64,000 bases of DNA from Lingula anatina (Eukaryota; Animalia; Brachiopoda): the NCBI GenBank assembly GCA_051362555.1, contig CM120641.1, forward strand, positions 37,640,401 to 37,704,400. The letters run 5' to 3'. Every line of letters begins with the position of its first letter. The stretch's first letter is position 1. The notes under the pieces are model-generated. The model made no database searches. It saw nothing but the letters and a program-made list of their open reading frames with translations, and was not told the DNA's origin. A program made the translations under genes and the position numbers. Positions 20,067 through 63,442 of this stretch are shown here, one piece after another.

Positions 20067-20705
20067 CCGCTAACCCTAGTGATCTACTTTTAATTTGGTT
20101 TACTCATCTGGGCACTAATACAAAAAGAATTAATCTTGGTAAAAAAAAAAATCAGCAAGAGCGAGAGTGAAATATAATTTTGTACTTAGAACCATGACAT
20201 TTGTTTTATCGAGATACCAAACCGAGCCTAGATCGTGTCAGCTTTATATATAATAATAAGACGTGATTGTTTTACACGGCTCTTGTTTCAGCACACACTA
20301 AAGATACAGATAATGATTTTTAGCATGCAATGCTAGTCTGACCCAAGACTGAATACTCTTATGAAAAAATAGTGGTATTCAGCATATTTAGACGAGGTTT
20401 GTTGCTGGGATTATAATAAAATAAATGTGCGATAAAACATAGCTATATATTTAACACTTAACGTACCATAGCAAACGGGTTGTGTTAATGCTACGGTGGA
20501 AGCCACGCGTCAAATCATTACTGGGTCATCACCTCAAAGTAAACAAAGGCCTATTCACACTAAAGAAATTTCTGGACCAAATTATAGTGACGTGGTGTCT
20601 AGAATTTTTTCCACGTTAGTTTCTGGGCACAAATTAAACCGCCGAGGTCATTCAGGTCGGCAACTGTTGCTACTCTTGCTCGCTGAAACTTAACCCTACG
20701 TCGCC

Positions 20706-22482: not shown

Positions 22483-22515
<33 letters not shown>

Positions 22516-22533
22516 TGTGATTTTATCTCTCAC

Positions 22534-22604
<71 letters not shown>

Positions 22605-23327
22605 GGTCAAAGATAACGTAAACTCTTGCAACCAAATAGTAACTCAAAATCTAACCTTTTCCCCCAGCATCATCCGAGACATACACAGTCCAACGAAGTT
22701 TGCTAATGTCTTACAATATTTCAGCTCATAAAGTGGGAAAAATGAAAGCATATTTCGGAATTTTAAGGTTGGTCTGTTTTGGTTTTTAGCAAGGAAACGT
22801 GAGACACGCGCTTCTTCTTGCAAATGAGATGCTGCAGATAGGTAAGTGCTCAAATAGCAAGTAAGCGCTATATAAACAAAATATTAATGCCACTGAACTA
22901 ATACTTTAATTGAAATACGAATTTTCATTTATGATATTTGTGAGACAATAATTAATGGCCTAAAATACAAACATTTCCAACTAGTGACTACATGGCGTCA
23001 CCAATAGATCAAGTGACTTATTCAATCTAAGTTCACAGTTATTCCCTTTATTTTTAACAGACCCCGAGAACGAAAGAGCATTACAGAATAAAAGATATTT
23101 TCTATCAAATCTTGAGGAATCTGACAAGCCGATGACGATTGAAAATAAAAGGCCACATAGGGGAGTAAGGGATGAAGAATATGAAAATTATGAAAAACTA
23201 TGCCGAGGAGATAGTATTAAACCTTTCAAAGTAGGTTCAGCTATTTGTATAATTATCCTCTTCATTTGAAATGTCGTTGACACCTTACATCTTGAAGACA
23301 TTTAATTGTGTATATTATTATTATTAA

Positions 23328-23361
<34 letters not shown>

Positions 23362-26300
23362 TTAAAGCAACCTCTAAAACCTGATATGTGAGATAACGCA
23401 TCTTTTTTACCGTTTCATGATTAGACACCAAAACGGACCCACAAACTTACTTGCAGTTATGAAACCAACAAGAGCCCTAATCTGCTGTTAAGACCATTCA
23501 AAGTTGAAGTATTGTATCACAGCCCTAAGATAGTCATGTGGCACGATGTGCTGTCCGAAGTCGAAATGAAGAAAGTGAAAGAGCTCGCTACGCCTCGGGT
23601 ACGTAGTAAGAGAGGCTAACATTTTGCTTAAATGTGATATGGTTTGTATTTAAAGTATTAACAGTTTCCTATCCGGGATTTTTCCCCCTTGACAAAAAAT
23701 AATACCACCATATTCTTCCTGACATTTTAGAAAGAAATGTCTGGATCTGGTACTTTTATTTGATGGGTTTTATCATTTCTAAGGCGAATTGGGAAAGATA
23801 AGTAGCTTTGCAGGGTATTAAGATCTATATAATATGACTTTGGAACATCTGGAACCGCGTATAGTAGCCTACACCTATAACAGCGCACATCGCATTGCTC
23901 GCCAAGAGAGACATTATCATGCTCGAAAAAAGAAAAAACTAACAGTTGTCTAGATGAATGCTCGTATTCATTTATTTCAGTTAAACCGCGCGACCGTTCA
24001 CAATCCGGTGACAGGAAAACTTGAATTCGCGGAATACCGAGTTAGCAAAAGGTCAGTGTCTTCGACGTCTTGTGTTTTGGAAATTGTGTGGCGCAAAAGT
24101 TTAAGCGAAATTGTTAGAGCCTCAGGAGATGCTACAGTAGAAATCAAACTCGTTTATATATAATGTAACCAGTGTGCTCAAGCTTACTAGAGTATGGCCC
24201 TACTTTTGTGGGCAGTGAGTTAGATCATCATTATTTTAGTGAAATACTTCAATTCAATGAGAGGACAGTACAAGTACACAACGAGACTTCTTCGATGTGT
24301 TACTAATTGTTAAAAATTGCCGTGAGTATGAAAATTCTTATAAATTTCTCTGTTCTAGCGTTTTCTTGGACAGCGACATCGACCCCGTAGTGGAAGTAAT
24401 CAGTCAAAGAATCGCAGACATCACTGGATTAGATATGTCCACGGCTGAAGGACTACAGGTGTGGCGCCTTGCTAGTTCTCCATTCAACTAAATTTGCCAC
24501 ATTAAAAAAATGTTATATATTTTTTTTACCTTATTTGCTGACATTGGTAAACTAGAAAAATGTTCTACACACACTGGACAATAGAAGTGTCACCCCTTGA
24601 ATCAGAGTAATCAAAGTTATTAACCTGAAGAGGTGAAATATAAGCAATGTCAGAATATCGATACAGTTGAATTGTTCAGTCAGAACCATTTTTTTTGTGA
24701 AATTTGATGTTAATAAATGGATACCAGAAGCATATCATTCCGCAATCATTTATCTCCCTCAAAGTATCGGTTCAGTAGGGGTGACACTTCTATTGTCCAG
24801 TGTGTGTAGAATAATTTTTCACCAATAGAATGTGTTATGTTTTTTTTCTTCTCTAACTACCTAGGTAGCTAATTACGGGATGGGTGGACAATATGAGCCA
24901 CATTTTGATTTTGCCCGGGTAAGTTTTAAAAATACAAGATTAACTTTGAAATAAATCAAGTGTTTTAGTCTATTGTTTTCTCATCAACTTCGCTAATCTG
25001 AGGGGTATTTACAAATACCTAGTTTAATATTAGTGAAAAAAGTACATGCATGTAGCTTGTAAAGACATCATTGTTTTTACTTATGTGACGTATAGGGCTT
25101 CAAAATAGCATTAAAGGGATTTTAATATATAGCCTGTTTACTATCATTATACAAGAGACACTGATTCACCTATTTTACTGTTAAAAGTTATTGGATTATA
25201 CATTTACGTAGTGTTTTAAGACAAGCCACTTTTTTTTCCAGAGGAGAGAAACCCACGCTTTTAGTGATGCTATAGGAAATAGAATAGCCACAGTTCTGTT
25301 TTATGTAAGTAATTGCACTGGAAGTAACCGATGCTGTTACTCTATCAGTCGACATACCCGTGCCTATGTCAGATAAGCTTTTTGTCTTTTTGGTCTCAGT
25401 TGTCGAGAATAATAGTGACGTCTTTCTAACGTTAAATTGTTCAGCCAAACAGTTGTTAGAATCTAGGACCCATTAAAAAGAGGATACTGGGTCCTATTAA
25501 GAATTAAATCAGGTTCGTTGTATGTGTGATATACTGTATAATGTTTACCATTCTGTTTTGTCGTAAGATGACAGACGTGGAAGCAGGGGGCGCCACAGTA
25601 TTTCCCAAACTAGGAGTTAAAGTTTTCCCTAAAAAGGTGCGAGTGTTGCATAAGTTCTGTAATCAAATATTTAGTGGTGTATGGTGAATTAGACTCAAAC
25701 ATATTGTATTTGAACTGTAAAACGCTTACACTTTCGTTGTAGTCATATGCATATATCGGTATAATAATTTACCAAAGTTAAAGTTTTATAGTAATAAAGT
25801 TAAAATGCAATTTATATATTTCTACATGTATGTATAGTAAAAATAACTGACACAATATATTAAAATATTACTTTTATTTTATCAAACCTCAGTCATTGAA
25901 AGGACCAATTTTGAACTACAATTATAAAACTGTGGAAAGTAACATACATGTATTTGTTGATTACATTTTAGGGATCTGCAGCATTCTGGTACAATCTCAG
26001 ACGGAGTGGTATTGGCGACTACCGTACAAGACATGCCGCGTGTCCGGTGCTGTCTGGGGCCAAATGGGGTACGTAAGCTCAGCACGCGCTTTGTAATATC
26101 ACTCACTACCCCCCCCCCCCCCCTCCCCAGGCCCACTAATTGATTTTTTTTTAAATCAGATATTCACAGATATGTATCTAGTCAATTCATTACATTTTTC
26201 TCTACTGTGTGCGTTAGGAAAAAGTGCATATTATTTATCTGCGGTCATGGTAGGCAAAATATCACAGTATCTGTGAACATATTCTTATTAGAATGTAGTC

Positions 26301-26745
26301 TAAGCACTAACTTCTACCATAGGTGATTCACAAGGTAGTGGTAAATGTCATCATCATCATTGCTCTTCGTCCCGCGTGGTGGTAAATGTACACCATTTTT
26401 AAAAGTTGCTTCGGCCGCATTCAGAACAGATGATCCGCGGACTAACTGGACTAATAACTGGTCAGTCAGTTAGTCCGCGGATCATCTGTTCTGAATGCGG
26501 CCTTAGTTCGACGATTTGTTTTTAAAATAGTATTTTTTAAATTCCTTGTTTTTTGACTGTATTAAATCTTGCCTCCTCCGTGTAAAGCCTATCAAACATG
26601 GCTGTCGTGTACCAAGGCATTGTATACATCCTTGCTTTTACTGAGCTGTATTCATCTTTATAAAATCTTTTCAGTTTGCAATAAATGGCTGCATGAAAGA
26701 GGACAGGAATTAAGGCGAACGTGTTCAACCAATCCTAAGGAATAA
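20706..26745 (+). CDS. P4HA: Prolyl 4-hydroxylase alpha subunit (P4HA-A), 14 coding exons, 528 aa: 20706-20887, 21100-21251, 21652-21822, 22236-22396, 22790-22841, 23061-23230, 23425-23598, 23981-24051, 24359-24458, 24865-24918, 25242-25304, 25568-25636, 25972-26068, 26675-26745
   Basis: Signal peptide, GNPINAY, ALMRLQDTY, TPR peptide-binding domain (DYYHT..WM), YRVSKS, VANYGMGGQYEPHFD (HxD), GNRIAT, GGATVFP, TRHAACPVLSGAKW, CNKWLHERGQE. All introns are GT-AG and the spliced length of 1587 nt is in frame. Confidence 0.95.
22485..22600. repeat. (CT)n / (GT)n(GA)n microsatellites in P4HA-A intron 4
   Basis: Directly visible. Confidence 0.9.
23314..23361. repeat. (ATT)n microsatellite
   Basis: Directly visible. 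Confidence 0.9.
24568..24806. mobile_element. Tc1/mariner-type MITE in P4HA-A intron 9
   Basis: 30-bp perfect TIR CACACACTGGACAATAGAAGTGTCACCCCT...AGGGGTGACACTTCTATTGTCCAGTGTGTG, flanked by TA on both sides. Confidence 0.8.
26413..26502. mobile_element. Short palindromic MITE (PIF/Harbinger-like) in P4HA-A intron 13
   Basis: 36-bp perfect inverted arms (26413-26448 / 26467-26502) beginning GGCCGCATTCAG; flanks TTC/TTA resemble a 3-bp TWA target-site duplication. Confidence 0.7.
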
Positions 26746-47900: not shown

Positions 47901-48023
47901 TTTCATGATGAAAAAAAAAACAAAATTTTCTCTAGCAGACACTACAAAGGAAGACAAAAAGAAAGCAGAAATGATTTCTGTAGAAGTTCACAGGTTCCTC
48001 AATAAACGGCTGTCATCTGATCT

Positions 48024-51000
48024 TCATTCATATGGGCTCAGGCCGCATGTTCTCACCAGTTCATTGCCTCGTTCATGAATCCATTTATTTGAAACTGAAA
48101 GAAAATATTTTACACTAATTATTTAAATCACAAAAAGGTTCTGAAATGTACATTTAACAAAATGCATCAATATACAAAAAATAACATGAAAAGAGCCCAG
48201 AACTCACACCATGTTGGCATGTGTATAGAATGGAATATCAACTTTCCAAGGGCATCATAATGACAAGTACATGGTTTTCTTGACATGTTATTCAAAACAG
48301 TAAGTGATGAACAATATGCTATAATACAACAGTTTTAACATATTTAAAAATATAGAAGAAATCTCACCCCATTTCTGTCCCACTAAAACTGGGCAAGCTG
48401 CATGTCTTGTCCTGAAGTCACCTTCTCCACTCCTGTATAGGTTGTGCCAAAACACAGCAGAACCCTGAACAAAGAACCCCACAAAGTGTTTTAACAAGTA
48501 TATAGCCACCTTAAGTTGAAAACATGTGTCTTAATGGATATGCCTCAGAATAATATTATGGGGACAAGAAAAGTAATTTGAATTAGATATTGGTAGTGAA
48601 CTTTAGGGGCTTCAAAAAAGATGCATTTTCAGTGCAACAATTCCATTTTAAATATTTATGCCCAATTCACAAACCAGCCGTCCGCACCTAATGACAGTAA
48701 AATGTTTATGGATACATCATGAATAATAAACCTACATGGGAAATGAAACTTGAAAGCTATAAAACTATTAGGCTACCTTTTTAGGAAAAACTTTGACCCC
48801 AATAGGAATAAACACTGTGGCACCTCCAGCAGTGACATCACTCATCTGAAATCCAATCAGTTTTAAGTAAGACAATTTCAAAAATTCAGATGTAAAAACT
48901 CCACATTATTGAATGAATACTATACATCTGATTTACTTATTATGAAGGACCTAAACCAAAAGTACACACTAAATGGAGCACACTTAACCAATTTGCTTAT
49001 TATTTTATGCTGCTTTTTTACAAAAAGAAAAAAAAATAATAATGAAAACAACATTGATAAAACAATTTGTCCTGAAATCTAACATCTACCTCCTCAGCTC
49101 TGGCTTAGTGATCAAATCATTAATGGCTCCATCTAAATAGAATGCTGTTTGCTTTCATCAAACGAGCTGCATACAGATGCATAATACAATGTCTACACAT
49201 CTGGTCTTTCATGTAGATTTTGCATAGATTGACAGCACTCCCCAATTATCTTTCAATTACAGTTAAATAAACTTCAAAGTAGATCCCCCACCTCATTTAA
49301 AAACACTGATACTTTATTTTTTTACCCTCTGTTTCAAAACAAACATTCTATCATAAACATTTCTCAGATTTTGTACCTTTACTAATCATTTGAAATGCAA
49401 TACTACATTTAACTTTTACCAAAATATGTTTTTTCTTCTTACATAAAGGTATTCCTCTAATTTAAAAAAATAAAAAGAATTTTTGAAAAAAATTACTTTG
49501 AATAAATAAAAAGAATTTTAGAAAACATTAATTTCATTTAAATCATCAAAAAATCAAATAAAAATAAGAAAACAACTCACGTAGTTCAACCATGTGGCAA
49601 TTCTATTGCCATGAATATAATCAAAGGCAGTCTCCTCCTGTTTCTAAATCAAAACATACACAATAATCCATTAAACCTCTCCAGACTGATCCAACACATG
49701 CACACAGCACACTGCCACCATGGGAGTGATGGTTCTTTTATCTGAGCACCAGTATAATATATACAATCATTTCAATAAATGATGAAAAAGTGAGCAATCT
49801 AACATTTCCATCATTCAAGAACAGATAGAAACCAGTACATACCCCATATACTAACTGCACAACTCTAAAGTATCTTACAATGCACTGCTGCTCAGATAAA
49901 AGATGCAGTAAGTAAAGGATGCAAACAACAAACAGACGGCTACTCTAAGCTAGGCTGGCTTGGTTGGGAATACAAGGCTACAGCCTGCAGCGCATTTTGT
50001 GATCCTTTCCAAAACACTATTCCCAACCAAGCCACTTACATAATTAAGCAGAGTAGCTATCCTGTTTCCTACTCTGGTATCAAAAGCACTAGATTCATCT
50101 TTCTGAAAACAAATGTGTTTTAAATTACTAAAAGCCATCAAGACATCTAGCCATTCCTTTTAGCTATTAAGAAGCCAATGGTTTTATTGCAACACTGATA
50201 TATTTCAATTTGATGTAGTAAAAGGTAAAACGTGCAACTAATTTTAAGTGGTACAGACATAATTAGACTTAAGTGTTTGTAAAAATTCATTTTTGCTTTT
50301 AAATTCTTTAAAACTTTCAACTAGAATTTCTCTCATTATAACACCAATATAACCAACATACTGTTACCTATGACATAATCCAGAATTTTGAATTATTTTT
50401 AAATAGATTATAAAAAACATGCTTACTCTTGCAAAGTCAAAGTGAGGCTCATAATGCCCACCTATCCCATAATTAGCCACCTGAAAGAAAAAGAACAAGG
50501 CAGCAAAGCTGTCAAATGTACAGACAAAGAACAGAAAATAAAGACGCAAATAAGTGAAAAATTAAATTTTCACAAAAAACTGTTAAATTGCCAGAAAAAT
50601 TTACCAAACAGACTGCGTTGCCTATTGAAGCTGTATGTTAGACCCATGTTTCTTTCCTGTAAGTTTGAGAACAGTAAGTGACATGATTTCCCTTAAATGG
50701 TCATCATAGGAGCAGTGCCCAAAATAGGGGTTTCTTCAAATTTTGATGCAACATTACATAATGTTTAACAGCATAATGACAATCAAATGTTATTAATAAA
50801 ATATAAGTAACATGGACATTCAGAAAATGTGACAAGCAAAAGTCTTCAAGATCATGGAACTTTAAAGTCACACCTTGAAAATGCCAATATGTGAAAAATT
50901 AAATTTTCACAAAAAACTGTTTAACTGCCAAAATAAATAAATAAATAAATAAAAATACCAAACAGACTGCATTGCCTACTGAAGCTGTATTTTAGTCCCA

Positions 51001-53624
51001 TGTTTCTCTCCTGTAAGTTTGAGAACAGTAAGTGACATGATTTTCCTTAAATGGTCTTCATGGAAGCAGTGCCCAAAATAGGGGTTTCTTCAAATTTTGA
51101 TGCAATATTACATAATGTTTAACAGCTTAATGACCATCAATTTTTAATTATAAAATATTTGTTTCACAGATATTCAGAAAATGTGACTAGCAAAGGTCTT
51201 CAGGCCCATGGAACTTCAAAGTCACGCCTTGAAAATGCCAAAATGTAAACAAGACAGCACTGTTCTGAAATGGGTTTATTTCCATTTTTAACACTTTTTT
51301 AACATAAAACAAAATAAACATTTTACTGCCATTTTATATGACCAACTAAGAAAATTGATGAGATGGGAAAAGTATCAATAGAACAGTGTTAAGTGTCCAA
51401 TTTCCTCCATTCTGAGATTCTGAACATAGTGGATGATTGAATCTGACAAACTGCAATGATATGAGTTTATTTCCATTTTTGACACTTTATTACATAATAC
51501 ATGATAACAAGTTTACCATGTTTTTTACATAATCAACTAACAATGTTGTAAAGATGCAGGAAATATCAAACAAACACTTTTAGGCATCTTATTAGTTAAA
51601 TAATGAGACTGTTAACATGCCTAATAATTGAATCTGAGGAAATGTGAAAAACAGTATAACTTCTAAAATAATGGCCTGATTATGCTGATTTTCGAACTCA
51701 ACCTGCGTTTTAGTAAGATTGACCACTCCTGTGAGTATGATTACAATTGGCCAATCCGTTTTTCTTATATTGTGTTATCAGTGTTGTATTTATATTGAAA
51801 ATAGTGAAAAAACAGCATAAAATCCCTAAAAACGGCCCAATCATGCTGATTTTCGAACTTGACCTGCGTATTATGAATATTCATCAGTTCTGTAAGTTTC
51901 AAGTCAAAAGGTAAAATGGTTTTCCACTTATCGTGTTATCGGTGCTGCATATATGCTGAAAAAAGTGAAAAAACAGCATAAATTCCCTAAAAGTGACCCG
52001 ATCATGCTGATTTTCGAACTTGACCTGCGTATTATGAATATTCATCAGTTCTGTAAGTTTCAAGTCAAAAGGTAAAATGGTTTTCCACTTATCATGTTAT
52101 CGGTAAAAGTGCACGGCGCCGACGGCGCCGACGGCGACGACAGACGCAGATGATGGCTATATGTACAGACACATCTGTGTCTGTACATAAAAATTGCATC
52201 TGATCAAAACACATCGTATTCAAAGGCAACTGGGAATTAACACTTTTGACTAAAAGACAAACAAATATCCGTTAAGATGAAAAGTTCATCAGAGAGCACC
52301 AGAGTGAACATGTCAAAATGGACATAATCTATTCTAATTTGTACCTAATGATAGTTGATCTAAGACCCCATTTCCAGAGATTAGATCGATCTACTTTAGA
52401 TCGACCTAACTCCCTGGGGGTTCACGCTAAATAGCTGTCAGCCGAGCGGACAAGAAAGTTAATTACCCCCTTGCAGCTTGTAGTAGGCTGGACGGACATT
52501 TAAGCCGGATGATCTGACAGTAATCTAGTGAGACTTCCCGCGGGGATAGATCGATCTAAAAGCTCTGGGAATACAGCCTAAAACTGCTAGGTAAAAGAAA
52601 AAGAAAAAAAAACATAGTGTAATGATTTGTTACTAATTACCTGAAGATCTTCAGCCATAGTCATGTCCAATTGGGTGACATCTTTTATTCTTTGGTTGAC
52701 TCTTTTAATGACAGCATCTTCATCTTCCTTCAGCCATGCACTAAAAAGTTCATTTTCATATAAATATTGGACACACCATTGGAGGATATTTAGCAGGAAT
52801 CTTTACTGGTTTGTCTTCTGTTGCATAAAGCAAATGTTACCTAGTTACTATGCAATTATAACAAATAAAGTAAAAAGAAATACATATTTTCAATAATTAA
52901 GAAATCAATATTTTTCATTTTAATTTGCATTCATTTCTTAATTTATGAATTGCTAAAAGCACCAATTTGAATACATATACAAACTAAACATGTATCAATA
53001 TCAGTGCCAAAGTGCCTTTGATATACATTTAATTCCCACCCCCAATCAAAAAGTATGTTAAAAAGATCATGTACAGAATTTCAGCACACACACACAAAAC
53101 AATTTCCCCATTATATTTAGGTCTTTGGTTGCCCTCAGCACTCCCAACACCATGGTGCTAACATCACACATTGAAAAAAAAACCAAATACAACATAACCT
53201 CTCATATTATTCTACTCTTTGCTCTATTTTCTTTTCTATCTGCCATCCAAAATATTATCGGCTTTATTTTCATTTAACTTTTTTTTTTTGCTTTTAATTA
53301 TATTTATTTCACTCTGGCAGCTTGATGTCCTCTTATCCATGGGGTCCTATGCATGTGTTTAGTCTGCTTAGAAATAAATAACAGCCTGAGCCCCAAACAA
53401 ACAAGTACTCTATCAGTATATGTTTATACATAAAACTTTTATCTTCACTAAGCTTGAACGAGGTGAACAATTCCATGTGTTCATTGTACTTTCCATTCCA
53501 TTTAAAAGTGAATTTTGACCAGGAATACAAGTCCTTGTACTTTCAAAATGTGCAAAATGTCTTTAGGATATAAACCAAGGCTATCAACAGGCAAAGGAGG
53601 AAGATTTAAGAAAACCCCCCCCCC

Positions 53625-53690
<66 letters not shown>

Positions 53691-56600
53691 GCCTCCTTAA
53701 CTAAAAAAAACAATATAATGATTCATTAGTTATAACTTCTACTTTTAAAATGTATCAATTTTAGAGTGATATATTTACTATCAATCAATGTTTGTGATAG
53801 CTTATTACAAAGTTATCAAACTGATAATCGTAAAGAAATCTTTAATCGTCTTTCTTGTATACTTATATATTGCACACTTCACTCCAAGCAAGTAGTGAAA
53901 ATATTTCTTCAATGTTTGACCAGTGTATACTTCAGTGCACACAGTAAATAGACAATTATCAAATCCTTGCTCGTGCTCTCCCCAATCAAACCTGCTGCTT
54001 ACCCTTTACTTGTACGGTAATTTTGAGTGGATGGCTTTGATGCATCAGAGGTATCAAACACTGTGGAACGTGCCAGCTACAACACATGACAAATCATGCA
54101 CATCATGGGAACTACACAGACCAATAACAGTGCATGTGCTCAAGACATTCACACAAGAGCTGAGAACGTAAGCAGTGCCAGAGTAAACCCACATTTGTGG
54201 CACTGATAATACTCAAAGTATAATTCTCAAAAGTACTATTGTGAACTCACAATAGCATGAGTGTGAATCCACAATAGTACCAATGTGAACTCACAATAGT
54301 ACGAGTGCAAACTGAACTGTGAAGAGAAACAGAATCTTAATGAACACTTAAATGCAACCAAGCAAACGTGAAAAATGCCATTAGTATAGAGTGTGGCAGA
54401 GTAAGGCTTCGTTCACATGCAATGTCTATTTTCTATTTTCTATTTTCTATTTTCGGTATGTCTTATGATCACGGTCTGTGCACTGAATATCCCGCCGCGT
54501 AATTACTGGCAGCGCGAGCCAGTTACTTAAAGTAACTTATAGTAACTGGCTCGCGCTGCCAGTAATTACGCCGCGGGATATTCAGTGCACAGACCGTGAT
54601 CATAAGACATACCGAAAATAGAAAATAGAAAATAGAAAATAGACATTGCATGTGAACGAAGCCTAACACTGCAAGAATTTCAACTAAAACTTTGTTACAG
54701 ACTTCTAAGAAAAAGAAATTGCTGAAAAAAGCAAGGGCAACTCAATAAGTTAGACACTTCAAAAGATACAGAAAGTTAAAAAAAAACAAATTAAAACAGT
54801 CTCTGTTATATATTAAATCAGAAGGGATTATAAGACAAGTGTTAGCTATCCCATTGTGCATAAAATATTGCCAAGTTATTTCATGTCTGACTTAAACAAA
54901 AAATGCCACTTCCAGGCAGCTCTCATTTCATGATGGTTTTACCATTTCTGAAGCACAGATATGCACCTCCTACATAACAGTTAAAATCTAGGAAAATGAC
55001 CAGAAAGTTTAACAAAGTTTAAAAGATAAGAATCAAATCTGTACTCAGTAAGACCAACTGCACAGTTAGACTATTAATTTTACCTTTTACTAGTTCTATA
55101 CTGTACCCTTCCATGTTTATGAAACACACCCGAAACGGCAAGCTAAAACAGAATCACATGGCACATGACATTCAAAATGTCTATGAGGGCAAACTGTTTA
55201 CTATACAGACAATATGTCTGCCATCCAGGAACTTCTCTAATAGGATATATAGTTGATAACATTATTGGGGTAAGGGAAGGGAAAAAGCTGGGTATTTATA
55301 ATTCTGATATGTGTAGAGGGAATATAACAAATAGAAAACATATCTAGAGAGTAGAAACTCACAAAAAATAACAACAAAAATCTTCCTGCTGATCTTCAAA
55401 AATCACTTTTACATATTTGTCCCTAACCTAAATGTGGGTCAAGAACAACAAACCTAAAAACCCTGAGTAGTTTAAAATCCAACCATTCAAATTAATACTT
55501 TTATATATTCCATACATTGCTTATAAAATTTTGCTTACATAAGAATGAGTATTTTACATTTGTGAGTAGAATATAGAAAATTACATTTTCAGTTCACAGA
55601 GGGTTACATTCACAGATCTATTAAAGCTACTGGGCTTGAGTGTATTGAGGCATTAGGGAAGCAGTGGTATTATACCTTTCATAATCCGAATTTAATATGA
55701 AAAGGTATTACAAAAGATCAAGGGTTGCTCAGAGATAAGCATATCTGTGCTACATACCATCTTACGTACATTTTCCTGAAAGCCTGCCACCAACAAAACA
55801 TAAGTCTTCAACCCATTATATCCAAGATTAAACAAAATAAATGGTTGGTTAAGAAAAATTGTAAGAATTATAAAAAACAATGAAACAAAAATTCGTTTTA
55901 AAAAAGAAGTAGAAAAAAGTAAAAGAAAGGAAAAAAATGTGCATTTCATCTTCTGATTGACTGCAAATGCTATGGAAGTGTCTCCACTCAATTGATAGAA
56001 CAATGAAGTTCAAAAGAACAGCACTTGCTGCAATATCAACTTAAGCTGCCATTCAAATTCAGAAAAAAAATGTTACAGACAAAAACAAAAATGTAGCTTT
56101 TGCCTTTAAAAAAACACCTAAACAACAACCAATTTTAACTCGAGTTAGACAGACACATTGGGGAACATAACGTAAACCTTTACCACCTGGCACCAGAAAT
56201 TCAACATTAACTGACGCTAAACAACCCAATCATGAACCAAGCTTGGACAACATCACCAATTACCAAAACCTTTGGGGGAAAAGCAGTCATAAGTTTTAGG
56301 AGTGAACTTTGTCATTCTCAGGGAAACAGTATGGTTATTAGTAAACATGCTAACAGATGAGTCACATGTCTACACAAAACATAAAAATTGATGAAATATA
56401 CAAGCAACACTTTACCTTTTACTTATGCGGTAAAATGCAGGCTCGTAACGACCTGTTTGGAGATTCATTGCAGTTGCCCGAGCAAGCTGTAAAAACACAA
56501 AGGAAGGAAAGAAAAATTGAAACAGAAAATTAAAAGCATTACCCAAGATCAGAAGCTATACTCTGATCAACCCAGATATGCAGAACGAAATATATAACTG

Positions 56601-59600
56601 TAAAACCTGAAAAGGCTGACCCAGATGAGGCACAAAGCTGAAACAGAAATATAAGATGGTATGACCCATGTGGGATTAAGCTGGTCACGAGCAAGGATGG
56701 GCGTGGAGTATCAATCATTTTCTTTCATTTTTTCCCCAAAAAAAATTCTATTTTTCTTTGTTACCTTTTACTTATTCTGTACTTGGCAGGTTCAAGTTGA
56801 AGAGTTTGGGGATTTTGAACAGTGGCTCGAATTAACTGCAAAACATATTTTGATTAAAATGTCAACTATAAAAAATAAACCCGCACAAATAATGATAATA
56901 TGAGGCATGCACAGTAGATATTTCAGGCATTAAAATACGATTCAAGAGTATCATGGTTTCCACCTAAATTGGGACTTTTATTCCATGCACATGCCATCCC
57001 ATGCTTTTTAAACAATCCAAATCACAAAACTATCTCCATCTTAAACTGAAGAACACAACTTCCTCTATCTTATATTTCATGCACACAGCCTTCCTGGTCT
57101 GAAACTATGAAGCTCTCCTTTACCTTTTACTTATTCTATAGAATGCAGGTTCCAGTTGTCCTGTATATACATTTTGTACTGTAGCACGTTTAAGCTGAAA
57201 TGCACACATTCTATGTGAAACTACAAAGAATTTGAGATAAAATAAAAAATAGAGGGTTAAGCAATAACAACAGTAAAACAAAACATATCATTATAGCCAA
57301 TAAAGAGAGTGCAAGAGAACATGCAATTCACAAAGAATATTTACACTATAAGTAACAAATATCTCTATTTCAATTCATGCATTTCATATCTTTCTGCAAT
57401 ATAAAATTTCATAATAAATGTTATCTCAGCCCCAATGACATGTTATCCAAATTCCAATTAAATCAAACAAAAGAAAACATTTCTACAGAGCAGCACTCAT
57501 TGTGTAAATATTTCAAATAAACCCAACTAGCAATGGATGAATTGAATAGAGACAATTCTAAAGTGGTAATAGATTAACAGTTGAATAAAAGCTTGCTGAT
57601 AGAATTTTAAGAAAACAAAAGTGTGACAAAAAATTGTGCATGTTGATTACATTAAAGCATACAATTCAATTTTCATCACGCAAATGAATTTAATGAAATC
57701 AAGTAAGAAACAAACAATTGTTGCTTTATCAAAACACATATATTTTGATGATCATTTTTACAAACATGCATTACTCCGAATAAAAATGACTTACATTTCT
57801 GATGCAACAATTCGGCTCAAACAGTCAATTTTATCCAAATATTTAACTATACTTTTGATAGTATTTATAATAAGCTACATGCATAACACCCATTAAAACA
57901 TGCAACAAGACAAAGAGTAAAATGTCAAGTCATTGATCCACTAGCTGGTTTCAGTATGTGCCACAGCATTGCTTAATATACACCAGCAAAATTCAGTTCG
58001 AGGTCTTTCTACATGCCTTTATATAAATATATATATTACATGGATACCTTTATATAAATATATAACCATGCACATGCATACATGTGGATCATAGCAACTC
58101 GGCCATTACAGGTCTTATTCACTGACCTAAATTTTGCTTTCAGATTTTGTTTGTTGAATATTTTTTCAGGGTGGAAACGATGTATAAATGAATAAATAAA
58201 TCATTCATTTTTATTACATGAATGCTTACCTTAGGTGCAGCAAGCCTTTTTATTGTCTCTATTTCAAAATCTGAGAGCATGTTATGATAAAACAAAATCC
58301 TTGGATCCAAGAATGCCTCCTCTTCCTTCAGAGGCCGTAATAACAGATTAGGACGATTGTTGTGTGTGTAACGGCATTTCAGCTTGTGTTTGTTGGGATC
58401 AGGCTGAAAAAAATTATCAGATTCCAAAAATATTTCAACAGAAAAAAATTCATTAAAAAACCAACTGAAAAAAATCACCAATAACCATATTGAAATAACT
58501 AGAGCTAGCCTGCAAATCTCATTTTTGCATTTCATCTCTAATAACAACATTCGAGACAATATGACAGCAGTTCATGAATCACAATGACCAAATTTTCCTA
58601 CATGTTAACTTGATATTTGTCATTTTTATGAAAAAACATTAAACACTTCAATGCAAGAAAAAAATTATGTGAAATCACATTTACAGTAAAGGAAACAGCT
58701 ACCAATAATCATTTGCATAAACACCTACAATGATATCCTCTCCTCTACAAAGAGCTTCATACTGCTTGAATTCTTGACCCTTTCTGTAATCATCAAGAAG
58801 TCGCTGGTTTTGAATTTCTGGCAAATCTTCCTCTTCTCCGCGCTTTTTTTCCTGATCAGCCGTCTCCAGCAGTTTTTCATAATAGCGTAAATTATTGACG
58901 GCTCTTGGATGATTGGGATCTGACATAAACAGAGAGTTTAGTTAAATGCAGCAATTTGACCCCAAAACAAAACATCATCTGGCAATATTAAAAGGGTATT
59001 TTTGACTCAAATCAATTCATTTGCCACACTGTGGACATAAATATCTTTACACAAATAATGGACACTACCACATGATAACTAATCCACTAATCATGTAGTT
59101 CATGACAAAAGAATGTATCAGATTGATTAACTCAGTCATCAATGTAATTAAGGTAAAGTAAACATAATTTCCCCTAATTGATATTTCCTTGTATGATTAC
59201 TTTTTTGTATATAATTGGATGGAATTCTTGTTTACGTCGACATGTTTACTTCATTCCAAGTGGAACAATTTAGAAAACAAAAAAATGTTTCAAAAAAATT
59301 AAGATGTGTTACATATACTACTAACCTAAAATAAAAGATGTCAATATGTGAAAATTAGAAAACATGCTAATTGAAATTAATAACTGCAAAAGACATAAAA
59401 AGCTTGAAGCTGATAACCTTCAAAATGCCCATAAAAAGCATAAAAGATATGAAGTCATAATTTAATACTAAGGAAAAAATAAACTTTTTTGATTCGATCC
59501 AAAAACTAAACCAAAAGAAAAGTTGTTACACTAAACCCAAACAATACATCAGAAATTGTTTTATAAATTGACATGAAAGTTTAAAAAAAAAAAAAAAAAA

Positions 59601-62600
59601 AAAAAAACAGGAGTAACTTTTGGATACTAAGCTGGAGTTAACTTCTGCTTGTTCTAGATGGTGCACAATTGTAACTCAGGTCAGTGTGTTCTTAGTCATT
59701 TTGTTTGAAAAGACATGCTTTGGTTATACAACTTGATGATAAATAAGTCAATTTATTTAAAAAAAAAGAGGAACAAAATTGAAGACTGTAGATATTTGTG
59801 TGCAGATTGAAAATTATAATGTGTTCAGTTTTAAAAGTCAAATAGAATTCTGAGCACTGAAATAAAGAACAGAAAACAGAGAAAGCAATTCACTTTTAAA
59901 AGTCAAGCACAACTGGATTTCAGAAATGAACACAGTGAAAGTGAACAGATGCCCCTGACCATGAGAGAGCTGCATACCACATCACACAAAAGTTTTGTCA
60001 TCACAAACTTTTCCTTGCTTACCAAGTTCTAACAGTTGTTTGGTGAGCTTGCGTGCATGCTCAACATTGCCTTGCTGTAAAATATATAAATATACATTCA
60101 TTTAAACATTGTAACTCTTATAAAATGTTGATCTTACCTATCTTAAGAAGATCTTGAGTAAGTAAATAAGCATGGCGGATATTCCCTTGCTGTAAAAAAG
60201 GTGAACATAGAATTCAAAGAAGAAGGAGAGAAGGAAAGATGAAAGGAAGAAAAATTATAATAAAACTAATACTTTTTTTACAAAACTGAACTGTTAAAGA
60301 ATATTTTCAAGTATCATTAATAAACACTAACAATGACTTTGATGAACAGGAAAAATGTACTGAAGAACAGTTAACATTTATCAGGAAGTACTGTAAACAT
60401 TAAATATGGCAATAAAGCATTTATCAAGAATCTAAAACGACCATAGACCAAAGCTGGGATTCTAATTCTAACATTCCTTTCCCAAGACCAATTTTCTCAA
60501 TAACTGATTAACACACACACAAACACACACACTTTTTAGTCAATGTACACTACTTATTTTTGTGTCTAGCGTGAGATAAATAAATCTTAATGAAATCTTT
60601 TCAAGTAACATTGGAACCATGGGATACTGATCTTTTACATTAAATTAATAAAACTGAAACCAAGTATTGAAATATTTCAAATTCAACACAACGCAAGAAA
60701 AAGAAAGTCCATTCAACCCAAGTTTTGCTGCAAGAGCAAGAACCCTATCTTTCTTTTTTCTCTCTTTCAGGGATCTGCTGTAAATATTTCTATCTACCTG
60801 CTCATGCCATGGCAGATGTTTGGGGATTTAAATCAGGTTTTTAAAAGCATGACACCAGGGACACAACCAATGCAACCAAGCACATGATATGTTACACATC
60901 TCTGCATAAAGATTCATGAATCCCAAACCAATCATGTCCAAACCAATCATGTCAGTATGAGATATACAACACACCCATAAATAACTTTCAAATATATATA
61001 ACTGGCAGCTATATCTTATAGCAGCATTAGACAAATAATGTTTATGTAAGTAGCAACTAGGATCTTAAAAGCATAACATAAGTTTGCTAATTATTCATAA
61101 TACTTTGACAGCTAAATCTAAATACTTGCACCCCAAACATAGTACCATTGTGAGAGCATATGCCAGATAGTCCATAATCTCCCCCATGCCGACAGTTTTA
61201 ACTTCCTCTTTATGCCAGATAGCCAGGGCCTGCTGCATCCAGTTCACCGTGTGGTACCAGTTCCCCTCAGTGTAGGCATACTTGCCCAGTACAAAACATT
61301 CCTCCGCTAAAAACACACACACACACCATAGAGAAATAATGGGTTGGATATCTCCGACCTGTTTTATTTTACAACAATTAGTTGGTGCTTGCATGCTATC
61401 TTCCTTAAACTCTATGACAATTTCATAACTTTGTTCAAGCAGTATTGTTTTTGGAATATATGTACCAGGAGCATGTTGCACCTTCGCTGAAGTCAGGTTA
61501 TCTTGGTTTGATTAATGCATGGTACTGTTAGTCGGTGCTCGCATGCTAAATTCTCATCCCTGCATTCTTATAATGCTATTAATGGCAAAGGGCAATTTTT
61601 CTTCAGGACAAAGGTCTCAATGTAAGAGTTCATTTGTGTACAGAGCAACATTGTGTCAGACACCAACAAAACAATCTGGAATTTTCTATATCCAAGCCAA
61701 TGTATAAGCAGGCAGCAGACCTGTGCATCCATATCACTGGTTGCTCCACCCACTTTGTTTTTTTTATTCAAATTCTTGATTAAATACCAATAATTCCTGG
61801 TACATGGGACACGGTCTGTATGGCCTTACTAGGGTTACATGCACATTGCTATAAGACACTTTTTATCATATAACTGTAGTTTTCTCTTCAAGGGTGTTTC
61901 ATGCAAAGGCATTCCACATCTCACATTCTTGAACACACAAACACACACAGTCATATACATGTGATGACATGCAACATGGTTTTGCTGTTAAGTGCTTACC
62001 CTATATAGTGAATAGGCAAGGTAATCTATTGTCAAAGCTCGGTCAGCTGTTTTGTTAACTTCTGTATCAAGTGTGTTTAATGCCTCCTCCATCCATAAAA
62101 TACAGTGATAATAATCTCCAGCATTGTAGGCAGTTCTGCCCAATTCAAAGCAATCCTCAGCTGAAACAAAACACACAAACAAGATAGGCACCAAGCAGTT
62201 AGTACTAAACAACTAATAAATACATCAACCAGGCCTGTAGACAAGCAATTTTAAGGGGGAGGGGAAGGTGGTTCTTTATCCGAAAAGGTAAACCTTTTTG
62301 TGTGTTCACAGAAGCTAAATCAAAATTTGATTCCGAGTGGACCCTTTTCCAACCAAAAAGGCAATCTGTTCCAACCCCCCCCCCCCCCCTTTGCCTAAGG
62401 GCCTGTCAACTAAGCTACAATATCTGTGTGCATACTAAATGGCAAGCTCCAGGGATCAAGCATTGGTTTGTTAATATTCAACCCACAATCGTATTCTGAA
62501 ATCAAAGCTACTTTTTTAATCTGAAATCAATGTCTAATGAAGTAAAGGACTTGGTAGGCCATAAAGCAATACTGAAGTACTAGTAAATATGTAACTTGAA

Positions 62601-63442
62601 CATTTACAGTATGTTTAGATAACTGGAATTATTAATTAAACATTTACAAATTTTATAAACAAAATGATAATTAATACCACTGAATCTGCCCTGGAAACGA
62701 AGTGAATTTTTACCCTACAAATCAAATCACCAAGTTCACAAATTATTTGATCAAATATTATCTAGAATTTGAAAACAGCTTCCTAGCAGAAAGAACTTAT
62801 GGGTAAGACTTACCTGTCATTTCTGGAGAGTTCTTGACTCCCTGCAGTTCCCCCTTGGCAATCTGAGCAGTTGGGAGGTTGTAAGTGTCCTGTAACCTCA
62901 GCAGGGCAGTTGCAGCCCCCTCGAAGTCTTCTTGCACTGGGAACTCAGACCCTCTATTGTGAAGCCGAGCAATTAAATCTGAAAATCATATATAAAATGC
63001 AAATAGTAAAAGATTTCACATAATGGAGTGTACACCTCTATTGTCAGGACTTCTGGTCACCCTTGGTTTGACATTCACACTTTGATTCTGAGTTTTTAGC
63101 CTTAAACACTTTTGCTCTAAAACTAATGAATAAGTATAGGAGGTCGATTTCTTTTTCTTCAGAGTGTGAACATATGTTTAAATGTGTGCACCTAGATTTT
63201 TCGACATTAAGTGATCACAGGCCATGCCACATGTAAGAAGACTGAATTATCATAACGGTGAGCAACAAAAGGTTACATAATCAGTCTTACCTGTGGAATT
63301 AGCTTTAACAAGTCCATCTACAATTCTTTCCCAGTCTATTGTGAACCTTTTCACTAACAAGTATGCATTCACTGGGTTGCCCAAATGCTTTTCTATATCA
63401 CTCAAAGCTTCTTGACTATGCCGCTCATAGTCTTCTGCAACT
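48024..63442 (-). CDS. P4HA: Prolyl 4-hydroxylase alpha subunit (P4HA-C), 5'-partial (first coding exon outside the window). Constitutive exons: 63442-63291, 62978-62814, 58919-58729, 58403-58230, 52740-52641, 50480-50427, 48845-48777, 48464-48368, 48094-48024; plus alternative clusters 4a/b, 5a/b, 8a-e, 11a/b
   Basis: GNPVNAY, ALLRLQDTY, DPNHPRA..N..YYE, YEALCRG, SAWL, VANYGIGGHYEPHFD, GGATVF, TRHAACPVLVGQKW, SNKWIHERG; intron positions and phases match P4HA-A and P4HA-B. Confidence 0.95.
49581..49643 (-). CDS. P4HA-C alternative exon 11b (KQEETAFDYIHGNRIATWLNY), 63 nt
   Basis: tttag acceptor, gtgagt donor; homologous to 11a. Confidence 0.9.
50040..50102 (-). CDS. P4HA-C alternative exon 11a (KDESSAFDTRVGNRIATLLNY), 63 nt
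   Basis: ttcag acceptor, gtaagt donor; GNRIAT motif. Confidence 0.9.
50554..51245. repeat. Intronic tandem duplication of a ~340-bp unit (50554-50890, 50891-51245)
   Basis: Both units start GTGAAAAATTAAATTTTCACAAAAAACTG and end CCTTGAAAATGCCA; highly similar by eye. Confidence 0.9.
51248..52193 (-). mobile_element. Non-autonomous Helentron-like (HINE-type) element with internal ~130-bp tandem repeats
   Basis: On the minus strand: T-run, 14-bp hairpin TATGTACAGACACA/TGTGTCTGTACATA (52160-52189), a GC-rich CGTCGGCGC microrepeat, about three repeats containing TGCTGATTTTCGAACT (51640-52105), and a CTTGTT end. The left boundary is uncertain. Confidence 0.6.
52364..52578. mobile_element. PIF/Harbinger-like MITE with imperfect TIRs
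   Basis: TAA on both flanks; imperfect TIRs sharing CCAGAG..TTAGATCGATCTA. Confidence 0.6.
53641..53686. repeat. (TA)n microsatellite
   Basis: Directly visible. Confidence 0.9.
54003..54076 (-). CDS. P4HA-C alternative exon 8e (LARSTVFDTSDASKPSTQNYRTSKG), 74 nt
   Basis: ttgtag acceptor, gtaagc donor, phase 0 to 2 like the other exon-8 copies, open frame, YRTSK motif. Confidence 0.8.
54405..54663. mobile_element. Palindromic PIF/Harbinger-type MITE, 259 bp, TAA TSD
   Basis: 123-bp inverted arms (54405-54527 / 54541-54663) with one mismatch; GGC...GCC termini; TAA on both flanks. Confidence 0.88.
55084..55142 (-). CDS. P4HA-C alternative exon 8d (LAVSGVFHKHGRVQYRTSKS), 59 nt
   Basis: ttttag acceptor, gtaaaa donor, phase 0 to 2, exactly 12 nt shorter than 8a-c, YRTSK motif. 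Confidence 0.75.
56416..56486 (-). CDS. P4HA-C alternative exon 8c (LARATAMNLQTGRYEPAFYRISKS), 71 nt
   Basis: ttacag acceptor, gtaaag donor, RAT...YRISK motif. Confidence 0.9.
56765..56835 (-). CDS. P4HA-C alternative exon 8b (LIRATVQNPQTLQLEPAKYRISKS), 71 nt
   Basis: ttgcag acceptor, gtaaca donor. Confidence 0.9.
57124..57194 (-). CDS. P4HA-C alternative exon 8a (LKRATVQNVYTGQLEPAFYRISKS), 71 nt
   Basis: tttcag acceptor, gtaaag donor. Confidence 0.9.
60023..60074 (-). CDS. P4HA-C alternative exon 5b (QGNVEHARKLTKQLLEL), 52 nt
   Basis: ttacag acceptor, gtaagc donor; same length as exon 5 of the paralogues. Confidence 0.88.
60138..60189 (-). CDS. P4HA-C alternative exon 5a (QGNIRHAYLLTQDLLKI), 52 nt
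   Basis: ttacag acceptor, gtaaga donor. Confidence 0.88.
61146..61306 (-). CDS. P4HA-C alternative exon 4b (AEECFVLGKYAYTEGNWYHTVNWMQQAL...DYLAYALTM), 161 nt
   Basis: ttttag acceptor, gtacta donor, open frame, TPR peptide-substrate-binding helices. Confidence 0.9.
62000..62160 (-). CDS. P4HA-C alternative exon 4a (AEDCFELGRTAYNAGDYYHCILWMEEAL...DYLAYSLYR), 161 nt
   Basis: tttcag acceptor, gtaagc donor, canonical P4HA TPR sequence. Confidence 0.92.
62230..62405. mobile_element. MITE (family A, copy 3, diverged)
   Basis: CAGGCCTGTAG...CTAAGGGCCTG termini, internal similarity to 19905-20066, TCAAC on both flanks. Confidence 0.7.

What the first reader, a model, noticed from the sequence alone, without database searches (positions are those of the whole stretch)
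60023..62160. Alternative exons in the peptide-substrate-binding (TPR) domain; 5a and 5b separated by only 63 nt
Seen: two 161-nt exon-4 copies (DYYH-type vs EGNWYH-type) and two 52-nt exon-5 copies whose intervening intron (60137-60075) is 63 nt. The vertebrate P4HA mutually exclusive exons I know of lie in the catalytic domain, so switching the binding domain looks new. Inference: the short 5a-5b spacer may sterically prevent joining, and 4a/5a versus 4b/5b could be used in a coordinated way because their helices pack together.
Basis: partly seen in the sequence, partly recalled or inferred. Interest (0 to 1): 0.72.

Follow-up and report, generated by a model that had tools for sequence, protein, structure and literature searches.

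The report
Swappable substrate-grip exons in collagen hydroxylase
A brachiopod's collagen-modifying enzyme gene splices in one of two versions of each of two neighbouring exons of its substrate-gripping domain and pairs them crosswise; the first of these switches is shared with molluscs and ribbon worms and likely changes which collagen sequences the enzyme holds.

Summary
Real, and larger than reported. The gene is a Lingula (brachiopod) collagen prolyl 4-hydroxylase alpha. Exons 4a/4b (161 nt), 5a/5b (52 nt) and the 63-nt spacer are exactly as described.

RNA reads from 4 runs use all four exons, with no 4a-4b or 5a-5b joint listed. RefSeq does model a 4b-5b isoform, so this is a bias, not a ban.

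The exon-4 pair recurs in 15 of 16 mollusc and nemertean gene sets examined. Its downstream copy lacks the P5-pocket residue equivalent to human Tyr199 (0 of 6 position-known copies aromatic, against 5 of 5 upstream). Exon 5 encodes outer helix H10 and is doubled elsewhere only in one annelid model.

The gene also has five exon-8 and two exon-11 copies, matching the vertebrate P4HA1 and P4HA2 catalytic-loop switches, giving 40 open combinations. A steric block by the 63-nt intron fits the geometry but cannot be told from NMD. Isoforms are in automatic annotation; no paper on binding-domain switching was found. Enzymatic effect untested.

The parts
62000..62160 (-). Exon 4a: PSB helices H7-H9; keeps the equivalents of Tyr158, Asp192, Tyr193, Tyr196 and Tyr199
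   Evidence: e3-4a joint 65 reads in 4 of 4 runs
61146..61306 (-). Exon 4b: alternative H7-H9; Tyr199 equivalent is Thr
   Evidence: e3-4b joint 32 reads in 4 of 4 runs
60138..60189 (-). Exon 5a: PSB helix H10
   Evidence: 5a-e6 joint 38 reads
60075..60137 (-). 63-nt intron between 5a and 5b; shortest of 43 introns mapped in the window's three P4HA genes
   Evidence: no 5a-5b joint listed
60023..60074 (-). Exon 5b: alternative helix H10
   Evidence: 5b-e6 joint 49 reads in 3 of 4 runs (listed as 58920-60028 with 4 other letters between, read here as haplotype differences at the junction)
61307..61999 (-). 4a-4b intron: three TGCATG at +27, +95, +157 and UG tracts after 4a and at the 4b acceptor; candidate regulator sites (inferred)
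62814..62978 (-). Constitutive exon 3
63291..63442 (-). Constitutive exon 2; the 5' coding exon lies outside the window
58729..58919 (-). Constitutive exon 6: helix H11 with Arg223, Asn227 and Tyr230 equivalents; Tyr233 equivalent is Lys
58230..58403 (-). Constitutive exon 7
57124..57194 (-). Exon 8a (71 nt), catalytic hairpin-loop cluster
   Evidence: e7-8a joint 6 reads
56765..56835 (-). Exon 8b (71 nt)
   Evidence: 8b-e9 loose ends 8 reads in X8, e7-8b joint not listed
56416..56486 (-). Exon 8c (71 nt)
   Evidence: e7-8c joint 46 reads
55084..55142 (-). Exon 8d (59 nt)
   Evidence: RefSeq isoform X9; junctions not seen in the joint tables here
54003..54076 (-). Exon 8e (74 nt); same type occurs in two annelid proteins
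   Evidence: e7 loose ends with 8e sequence, 28 reads in 3 runs
52641..52740 (-). Constitutive exon 9
50427..50480 (-). Constitutive exon 10 (HxD iron ligands)
50040..50102 (-). Exon 11a (63 nt), betaII-betaIII loop cluster
   Evidence: e10-11a and 11a-e12 joints
49581..49643 (-). Exon 11b (63 nt)
   Evidence: RefSeq X5, X8, X10; joints not among the 15 of 200 rows shown
48023..48845 (-). Constitutive exons 12 (48845-48777), 13 (48464-48368) and 14 (48094-48023, stop)

Best explanation
This brachiopod collagen prolyl 4-hydroxylase alpha gene splices one of two exon-4 and one of two exon-5 copies into its peptide-binding domain, mostly as 4a-5b or 4b-5a, and the exon-4 swap likely retunes substrate binding by removing a tyrosine from one proline pocket.

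Shown: both copies of each exon are used, same-cluster joints are not listed, and pairing is crosswise. The exon-4 pair and the loss of the Tyr199 equivalent in the downstream copy recur across molluscs and nemerteans.

Inferred (a): 4b gives a P5 pocket without Tyr199 and so a different affinity or binding mode for Pro-Pro-Gly versus X-Pro-Gly stretches; exon 5 alters the outer helix H10 and matters less. Inferred (b): 5a-5b joining is blocked mainly because any branch point in the 63-nt intron lies at most 47 nt from the 5a donor, with NMD as back-up; 4a-4b joining is removed by regulation plus NMD. Inferred (c): the crosswise bias comes from cell-type splicing programmes (Rbfox/CELF-type factors on the UGCAUG and UG tracts around exon 4) that set both choices in the same cells, not from protein packing. 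With the exon-8 and exon-11 clusters, one gene would switch all three known substrate-specificity elements of the enzyme.
For: Junction reads in X4/X7/X8/X9 (all 11 joint rows shown): e3-4a 3/22/17/23; e3-4b 7/10/7/8; 4a-5a 1/5/1/6; 4a-5b 2/23/18/12; 4b-5a 2/7/9/4. Not listed (threshold 3 reads at 2 starts): 4b-5b, 4a-4b, 5a-5b, and skips of exon 4 or 5. Fisher p 2.8e-12 if 4b-5b is 0 and 4.9e-7 if 8. 40 of 40 one-per-cluster combinations are open to the stop; double inclusion or skipping of exon 4 or 5 alone gives early stops. Two exon-4 versions occur in 13 of 13 mollusc/nemertean one-gene sets and 2 of 3. A mussel-like genomic contig shows two 161-nt copies in the same order and phase with a single exon 5 (L006). 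Residue 199 is aromatic in 5/5 position-known upstream and 0/6 downstream copies, 12/12 versus 2/12 in isoform pairs, and 13/14 single-copy genes. Tyr199 shapes the P5 pocket and the groove is formed by H7, H9, H11 (PMC12433258). Predicted helices match exon borders. The 63-nt intron is the shortest of 43, next 130, median 325; about 50 nt is needed in human extracts (PMC6692369 passages). TGCATG occurs 16 times in alternative-flanking introns against 5.8 in shuffles (1 of 200 reach it) and 0 times in constitutive introns; 6 of 9 UG tracts flank exons 4a-5a.
Against: No biochemical test. RefSeq models a 4b/5b isoform (X4), and the per-run association is weak in X4 (p 0.4-1.0) and X9 (p 0.03-0.19). 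Three of the four runs are from one study, differ from the window at fixed exon positions, and have unknown tissue; mate pairs may double-count. Orthology of Lingula 4b to mollusc b copies is not proven: it joins them in one tree (86/89) but not once the last 5 columns are dropped, and the AU test rejects neither a Lingula-only duplication (p 0.197) nor one b clade (p 0.35). The v1/v2 labels of isoform pairs were assigned by me from sequence. Venerid b copies keep Tyr199. Other spiralians splice introns of 57-66 nt median (PMC7854359), and Lingula's genome-wide minimum was not measured. There is no TGCATG near exon 5; the motifs were picked after seeing the sequence; TG repeats are common in this window.
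Confidence: 0.68

Rival explanations
1. The 4b-5b gap is hard-wired in cis: 4b and 5a act as an inner module between 4a and 5b, coupled by RNA pairing or splicing order (after 4b, the nearest acceptor 5a is taken, and the short intron then shuts out 5b).
For: 4b-5b is not listed in 4 of 4 runs while 4a uses both exon-5 copies. The genomic order 4a-4b-5a-5b makes 4b-5a the inner pair. One stem between the 4a-4b and 4b-5a introns was reached by 2 of 60 shuffles.
Against: No convincing inverted repeat. Of 10 intron pairs scanned, the only one beyond all shuffles is a poly-T against A-rich match. The 5a-5b region folds no better than shuffles (z -0.73). RefSeq has a 4b/5b model.
Confidence: 0.25
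2. Exclusivity of 5a/5b is kept by NMD and regulation alone; the 63-nt intron is spliceable in Lingula.
For: 5a+5b gives a stop inside 5b. Annelids have median introns of 57-66 nt (PMC7854359 passages). The intron has a good donor and acceptor.
Against: None of the 42 other introns mapped in the window is under 130 nt, and all candidate branch adenosines lie at most 47 nt from the donor.
Confidence: 0.3
3. The exon-5 duplication is functionally near-neutral, and only exon 4 matters.
For: H10 is outside the groove (PMC12433258). Exon 5 is single in all 16 mollusc/nemertean sets. Core packing positions are shared by 5a and 5b.
Against: Both copies are intact and well used (38 and 49 reads) in a diverged population. 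They differ at 8 of 17 residues, including a position that is Leu in 197 of 217 proteins but Tyr in 5a and Arg in 5b. An annelid model also strings two copies.
Confidence: 0.3
4. One reading: 4a/5a and 4b/5b are co-selected because their helices pack together.
For: H9 (exon 4) and H10 (exon 5) do form one TPR unit (PMC12433258).
Against: 4a goes to 5b in 55 of 68 reads and 4b to 5a in 22 of 22 listed. The 4b/5b model folds with high confidence.
Confidence: 0.02
5. The copies are an assembly artefact or dead exons.
For: The genome is heterozygous (1.6%, PMC4595640 passages), and the RefSeq model for this copy is garbled.
Against: Copies are only 43-53% identical in protein, spliced in RNA, identical in a second scaffold's isoforms, and conserved in other phyla.
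Confidence: 0.01

Closest known systems
Vertebrate P4HA1 homologous alternative exons 9/10 (hairpin loop) and P4HA2 exons 12a/12b (betaII-betaIII loop); PMC9676403 passages
   Same: Same enzyme family, tandem homologous exons used one at a time. The window's exon-8 and exon-11 clusters fall in the two flexible catalytic loops, and a shark P4HA2-like gene varies at both slots. The P4HA1 event is reported as bilaterian-old (PMC8373072).
   Different: Exons 4 and 5 lie in the PSB domain, where no splice variant was found in the papers seen. One gene holds four clusters (2x2x5x2), and two adjacent clusters are coupled crosswise.
Vertebrate isoenzymes C-P4H-I versus C-P4H-II (PSB-I versus PSB-II); PMC12433258, bioRxiv 2023.06.28.546674
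   Same: Different PSB grooves and catalytic loops give different collagen-sequence preferences. 4a scores best against alpha-2 (57.9 vs 57.0 bits) and 4b against alpha-1 (49.4 vs 43.8).
   Different: Vertebrates use paralogous genes and differ at the P1 pocket (Tyr233). Here one gene swaps exons and the difference is at the P5 pocket (Tyr199); the P1 residue is constant (Lys).
alpha-tropomyosin-type steric exclusion (branch point too near the upstream donor); cited in PMC6692369 passages
   Same: Donor-to-branch distance under about 50 nt for any plausible branch point.
   Different: Achieved here by a very short intron, not a distant branch point in a longer one. The branch point was not mapped, and the frameshift gives NMD as an alternative.
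C. elegans unc-32 exons 4a-c and 7a-b (PMC3585155, abstract and outline only)
   Same: [quoted passage not shown]
   Different: Regulators are untested in Lingula, the clusters here are directly adjacent, and no UGCAUG lies near exon 5.
RefSeq automatic isoforms XP_023930560-570 of Lingula anatina and isoform sets of molluscs and nemerteans
   Same: They already contain all four exon-4/5 combinations and most exon-8/11 variants.
   Different: They give no abundance, coupling, conservation or structural reading. The model of this copy (XP_023932280.1) strings 4a, filler and 4b together and drops exon 5.

Membership tests
Collagen prolyl 4-hydroxylase alpha subunit | P4Ha_N + TPR_P4H + 2OG-Fe(II) domain order | tested here: met
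   both 4a/5b and 4b/5a proteins above Pfam cut-offs; PDB matches E 9e-92 and 9e-60
Collagen prolyl 4-hydroxylase alpha subunit | HxD...H iron ligands and the 2OG-binding Lys motif | tested here: met
   aligned to human chain 7zsc_A without change at these motifs
Collagen prolyl 4-hydroxylase alpha subunit | alpha2beta2 tetramer with PDI and 4-hydroxylation of X-Pro-Gly | not testable with these tools
   needs recombinant enzyme
Tandem-duplicated mutually exclusive exons | Homologous adjacent exons of equal length and phase with intact splice sites | tested here: met
Tandem-duplicated mutually exclusive exons | Each copy spliced to the common flanks; no copy-to-copy joint; no skipping | tested here: met
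   for clusters 4 and 5 (threshold 3 reads at 2 starts; poly(A) RNA subject to NMD)
Steric-hindrance class of mutually exclusive exons | Donor-to-branch distance below the spliceable minimum of the organism | tested here: inconclusive
   at most 47 nt by geometry and shortest of 43 introns; genome-wide minimum not available
Steric-hindrance class of mutually exclusive exons | Mapped branch point; joint still absent without NMD | not testable with these tools
   needs lariat sequencing and NMD inhibition
Docking-site/selector (competing RNA pairing) clusters | Conserved complementary intronic elements | tested here: not met
   no convincing duplex or inverted repeat; no meaningful intron similarity to the mussel-like locus; close relatives' introns were not available
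Vertebrate P4HA1 9/10 or P4HA2 12a/12b events | Alternative exon lies in a catalytic-domain loop | tested here: not met
   exons 4 and 5 map to PSB residues 170-239; the feature is met by clusters 8 and 11 instead
One ancient lophotrochozoan exon-4 duplication | All downstream copies form one clade apart from upstream copies | tested here: inconclusive
   14 of 18 group at 86/89 and labels cluster (4 changes vs 12.2 shuffled, 0 of 500); neither alternative rejected by AU tests

The most novel reading that the evidence does not exclude
Since the Cambrian, lophotrochozoans have built their collagen-hydroxylase isoenzymes by splicing instead of gene duplication. A single gene switches the peptide-binding groove (a conserved P5 pocket with or without Tyr199) and both catalytic loops. 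In Lingula a cis-coupled pair of adjacent clusters yields cell-specific enzymes matched to distinct collagens, such as shell versus muscle or basement membrane. These natural isogenic variants would show what the PSB domain does in catalysis.
Probability: 0.35. Interest if true: 0.78.

Novelty: new variant of a known kind. Interest (0 to 1): 0.58.

Why it matters
[quoted passage not shown] Here are natural enzyme pairs, identical except for the groove, kept across brachiopods, molluscs and nemerteans with the same pocket residue removed. They make that question directly testable. They also suggest how animals with unusual collagens (Lingula's shell collagens, PMC4595640) could tune hydroxylation from one gene. 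For splicing, two adjacent mutually exclusive clusters with crosswise coupling and a 63-nt spacer form a compact model that short reads can phase.

Tried and rejected
No whole genome was held, so the genome-wide intron-length distribution was not computed; I used 43 introns of the window's three P4HA genes and dropped one 111-nt gap from a mis-annotated model. The first RNA lay over the whole gene was swamped by intronic repeats and showed only 15 of 200 joint rows, so 8d and 11b junctions were not seen. No indexed RNA holder was listed; the runs came by species label. Searches for RNA duplexes found nothing convincing (one search timed out). The idea that the downstream paralogue is a frozen 4b/5a isoform holds only for exon 4 (tree 97/90 with 4b; but 24/53 identity to both copies) and is weak for exon 5 (9/17 vs 7/17). 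That 4a and 4b are the ancestors of vertebrate alpha-II and alpha-I grooves is not supported: both vertebrate rows group together (they were the outgroup). The Aplysia upstream copy was mis-extracted and left out. A b-type profile search found no clear b-type copy outside molluscs, nemerteans and Lingula among 43 hits (weak evidence). The metagenome scan gave 7 loci, one with both copies. Literature searches showed no paper on PSB-domain alternative exons in their listings; subscription papers are outside the library and no supplements were read (e.g. Fig. S1 of PMC9676403). No earlier scan notes on this genome or sequence. Complex prediction was not used, because the relevant partner is a short peptide.

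Full report
Observation. On the minus strand the window holds exons 2-14 of a collagen prolyl 4-hydroxylase alpha gene, 63442 to 48023; the first coding exon is outside the window. Exons 4a (62160-62000) and 4b (61306-61146) are 161 nt, 5a (60189-60138) and 5b (60074-60023) are 52 nt, and the 5a-5b intron is 63 nt, all with AG/GT ends. The peptides are 23/53 and 9/17 identical. The exon peptides are identical to Lingula anatina RefSeq proteins. The gene also has five exon-8 copies (71, 71, 71, 59, 74 nt) and two exon-11 copies (63 nt). All 40 one-per-cluster combinations read through to the stop. 4a+4b, 5a+5b, and skipping exon 4 or exon 5 alone give early stops, while skipping both 4 and 5, skipping 11, or joining 11a+11b keep the frame.

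RNA evidence. Nine RNA runs were offered by species label; five were used. The narrow lay (runs X4, X7, X8, X9; about 6-30% of each read; all 11 joint rows shown) gives, per run: e3-4a 3/22/17/23, e3-4b 7/10/7/8, 4a-5a 1/5/1/6, 4a-5b 2/23/18/12, 4b-5a 2/7/9/4, 5a-e6 8/7/12/11, 5b-e6 0/16/18/15 and e6-e7 16/20/32/30. Joints 4b-5b, 4a-4b, 5a-5b and e3-e6 are not listed; a row needs 3 reads at 2 starts. Flux is balanced (97, 90, 87, 98 reads through successive steps), and 5b receives 55 and passes on 49, so no large hidden input to 5b is needed. Fisher's test gives p 2.8e-12 with 4b-5b at 0 and 4.9e-7 at 8; by run it is strong in X7 and X8 and weak in X9 and X4. Against a strict ban, RefSeq isoform X4 on a 43-kb scaffold (an allelic copy by inference, since its exon peptides are identical) is 4b/5b; that such models rest on spliced reads is recalled, not checked. 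Three of the four runs come from one study and carry fixed exon differences from the window (17 synonymous, 9 conservative or loop changes among 26 shown positions examined); tissues are unknown. Exons 8a, 8b, 8c and 8e and 11a are also spliced; 8d and 11b rest on RefSeq models.

Protein anatomy. In the predicted 4b/5b structure (mean pLDDT 82.4, 90-97 over residues 171-260) exon 4 encodes helices H7-H9 and exon 5 encodes H10. The groove is formed by H7, H9 and H11; the P8 pocket uses Tyr158, Tyr193, Tyr196 and Asp192-Arg223, and the P5 pocket uses Tyr196, Tyr199, Asn227, Tyr230 and Phe231 (PMC12433258, Introduction part 1 and passages). By alignment to human alpha-I, 4a keeps all exon-4 pocket residues and 4b keeps all but Tyr199, which is Thr. 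TPR core positions at the H9/H10 contact, read off the TPR consensus (recalled), are almost the same in both copies of each exon, so packing does not demand a given pair. Residues 365-380 (exon 8) have pLDDT under 50 and 441-450 (exon 11) average 59, consistent with the hairpin and betaII-betaIII loops. These loops carry the vertebrate splice variants (PMC9676403 passages) and are proposed to set X-position specificity (bioRxiv 2023.06.28.546674 passages).

Conservation. Two exon-4 versions occur in 13 of 13 mollusc and nemertean one-gene sets (the Babylonia and Nucella rows were pairs of paralogues and are not counted) and in 2 of 3 (Sepia showed only the b type). Gene models of Biomphalaria, Candidula, Aplysia, Tegillarca, Pinctada, Nucella and Bulinus string both copies in the Lingula order. 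Metagenome locus L006 shows two 161-nt copies at 4219-4379 and 5018-5178 with a single 52-nt exon 5. None of 7 arthropod or shark sets showed two versions, which is weak evidence of absence. Residue 199 is aromatic in 5/5 position-known upstream copies and 0/6 downstream, 12/12 versus 2/12 in isoform pairs labelled by me, and 13/14 single copies. Trees of 53 columns put 14 of 18 b copies, including Lingula 4b, together at 86/89. Without the last five columns the mollusc and Lineus b copies still group (92/71) but Lingula 4b does not join them, and AU tests reject neither one origin nor a separate Lingula origin. Exon 5 is single in those 16 sets and doubled only in one Owenia model; the other two multi-copy hits among 164 proteins are whole-gene fusions. 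The divergent 8e type is shared with two annelids.

Mechanism of exclusion. The 63-nt intron is the shortest of 43 mapped in the window's three P4HA genes (next 130, median 325), and candidate branch adenosines at -17 to -47 lie at most 47 nt from the donor. About 50 nt is needed in human extracts (PMC6692369 passages). Annelids splice 57-66-nt introns (PMC7854359 passages), and 5a+5b is an NMD target, so the steric block is likely but unproven. No convincing RNA pairing was found. TGCATG is enriched in introns next to alternative exons (16 vs 5.8; 1 of 200 shuffles; 0 in constitutive introns), with three copies just after 4a and none near exon 5. UG tracts concentrate around 4a-5a (6 of 9). 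By analogy with unc-32 (PMC3585155, abstract only) I favour cell-type programmes as the source of the crosswise bias (inferred; about 0.6 against 0.25 for cis coupling).

Comparison and novelty. It works like the vertebrate P4HA1 and P4HA2 homologous-exon switches and is a member of the tandem mutually exclusive exon class, but exons 4 and 5 are not those events. The P4HA1 event is known to be bilaterian-old (PMC8373072, passages and section 17); PMC5224494 (passages) treats the human P4HA1 pair only. The Lingula genome paper's main text has no occurrence of 'hydroxylase' or 'splicing'. Eight searches listed no paper on PSB-domain alternative exons; subscription journals are not covered and no supplements were read. 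The isoforms exist in automatic annotation. New here are the cross-phylum conservation with a shared pocket change, the crosswise coupling, and four clusters covering all three specificity elements.

Verdict. Observation confirmed; interpretation partly supported, with the coupling direction and its cause corrected. New variant of a known kind; interest 0.58.

Noticed in passing
window 57194-54003 (-): Five copies of the catalytic hairpin-loop exon 8. 8c and 8e dominate in the runs seen; the 8e type is shared with the annelids Owenia and Lamellibrachia.
   Followed up: partly
window 50102-49581 (-): Two in-frame exon-11 copies. Models of Lineus, Magallana and Dermacentor carry both copies in tandem, so this cluster may not be strictly exclusive.
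   Followed up: partly
window about 44800-38013 (-): Tandem P4HA paralogue with single exons; its exon 4 is 4b-like and lacks Tyr199. The RefSeq model (P0250) misses the true exons at 38422-38326 and from 38083, which carry the distal His and the terminal motif.
   Followed up: partly
window about 20700-26730 (+): Third P4HA paralogue (P0101), single-copy at all four slots.
   Followed up: partly
window 62160-61146 (-): RefSeq model XP_023932280.1 strings 4a, about 21 residues of filler and 4b together and omits both exon-5 copies; a mis-annotation caused by the clusters.
   Followed up: yes
window about 54400-54665: Long near-perfect inverted repeat (MITE-like by appearance) in the 8d-8e intron; attracts reads on both strands.
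   Followed up: no
window about 50500-52600: Multi-copy repeats in the e9-e10 intron draw thousands of RNA reads from elsewhere.
   Followed up: no
window 61307-61999 and 56836-57123: Intronic reads at depth 3-7 in the 4a-4b and 8a-8b introns, suggesting partly spliced intermediates that keep the intron between copies.
   Followed up: no
L005 1972-3549: Intronless P4HA reading frame inside a 7.9-kb contig; transcript or retrocopy.
   Followed up: no
L001 875-1033; L002 1621-1779: Genomic exon 4 about 75% identical to 4a from an unnamed record; only one copy within 2.0-2.7 kb contigs.
   Followed up: no
window 60138-60189 and 60023-60074: The eighth residue of exon 5 is Leu in 197 of 217 proteins but Tyr in 5a and Arg in 5b.
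   Followed up: no
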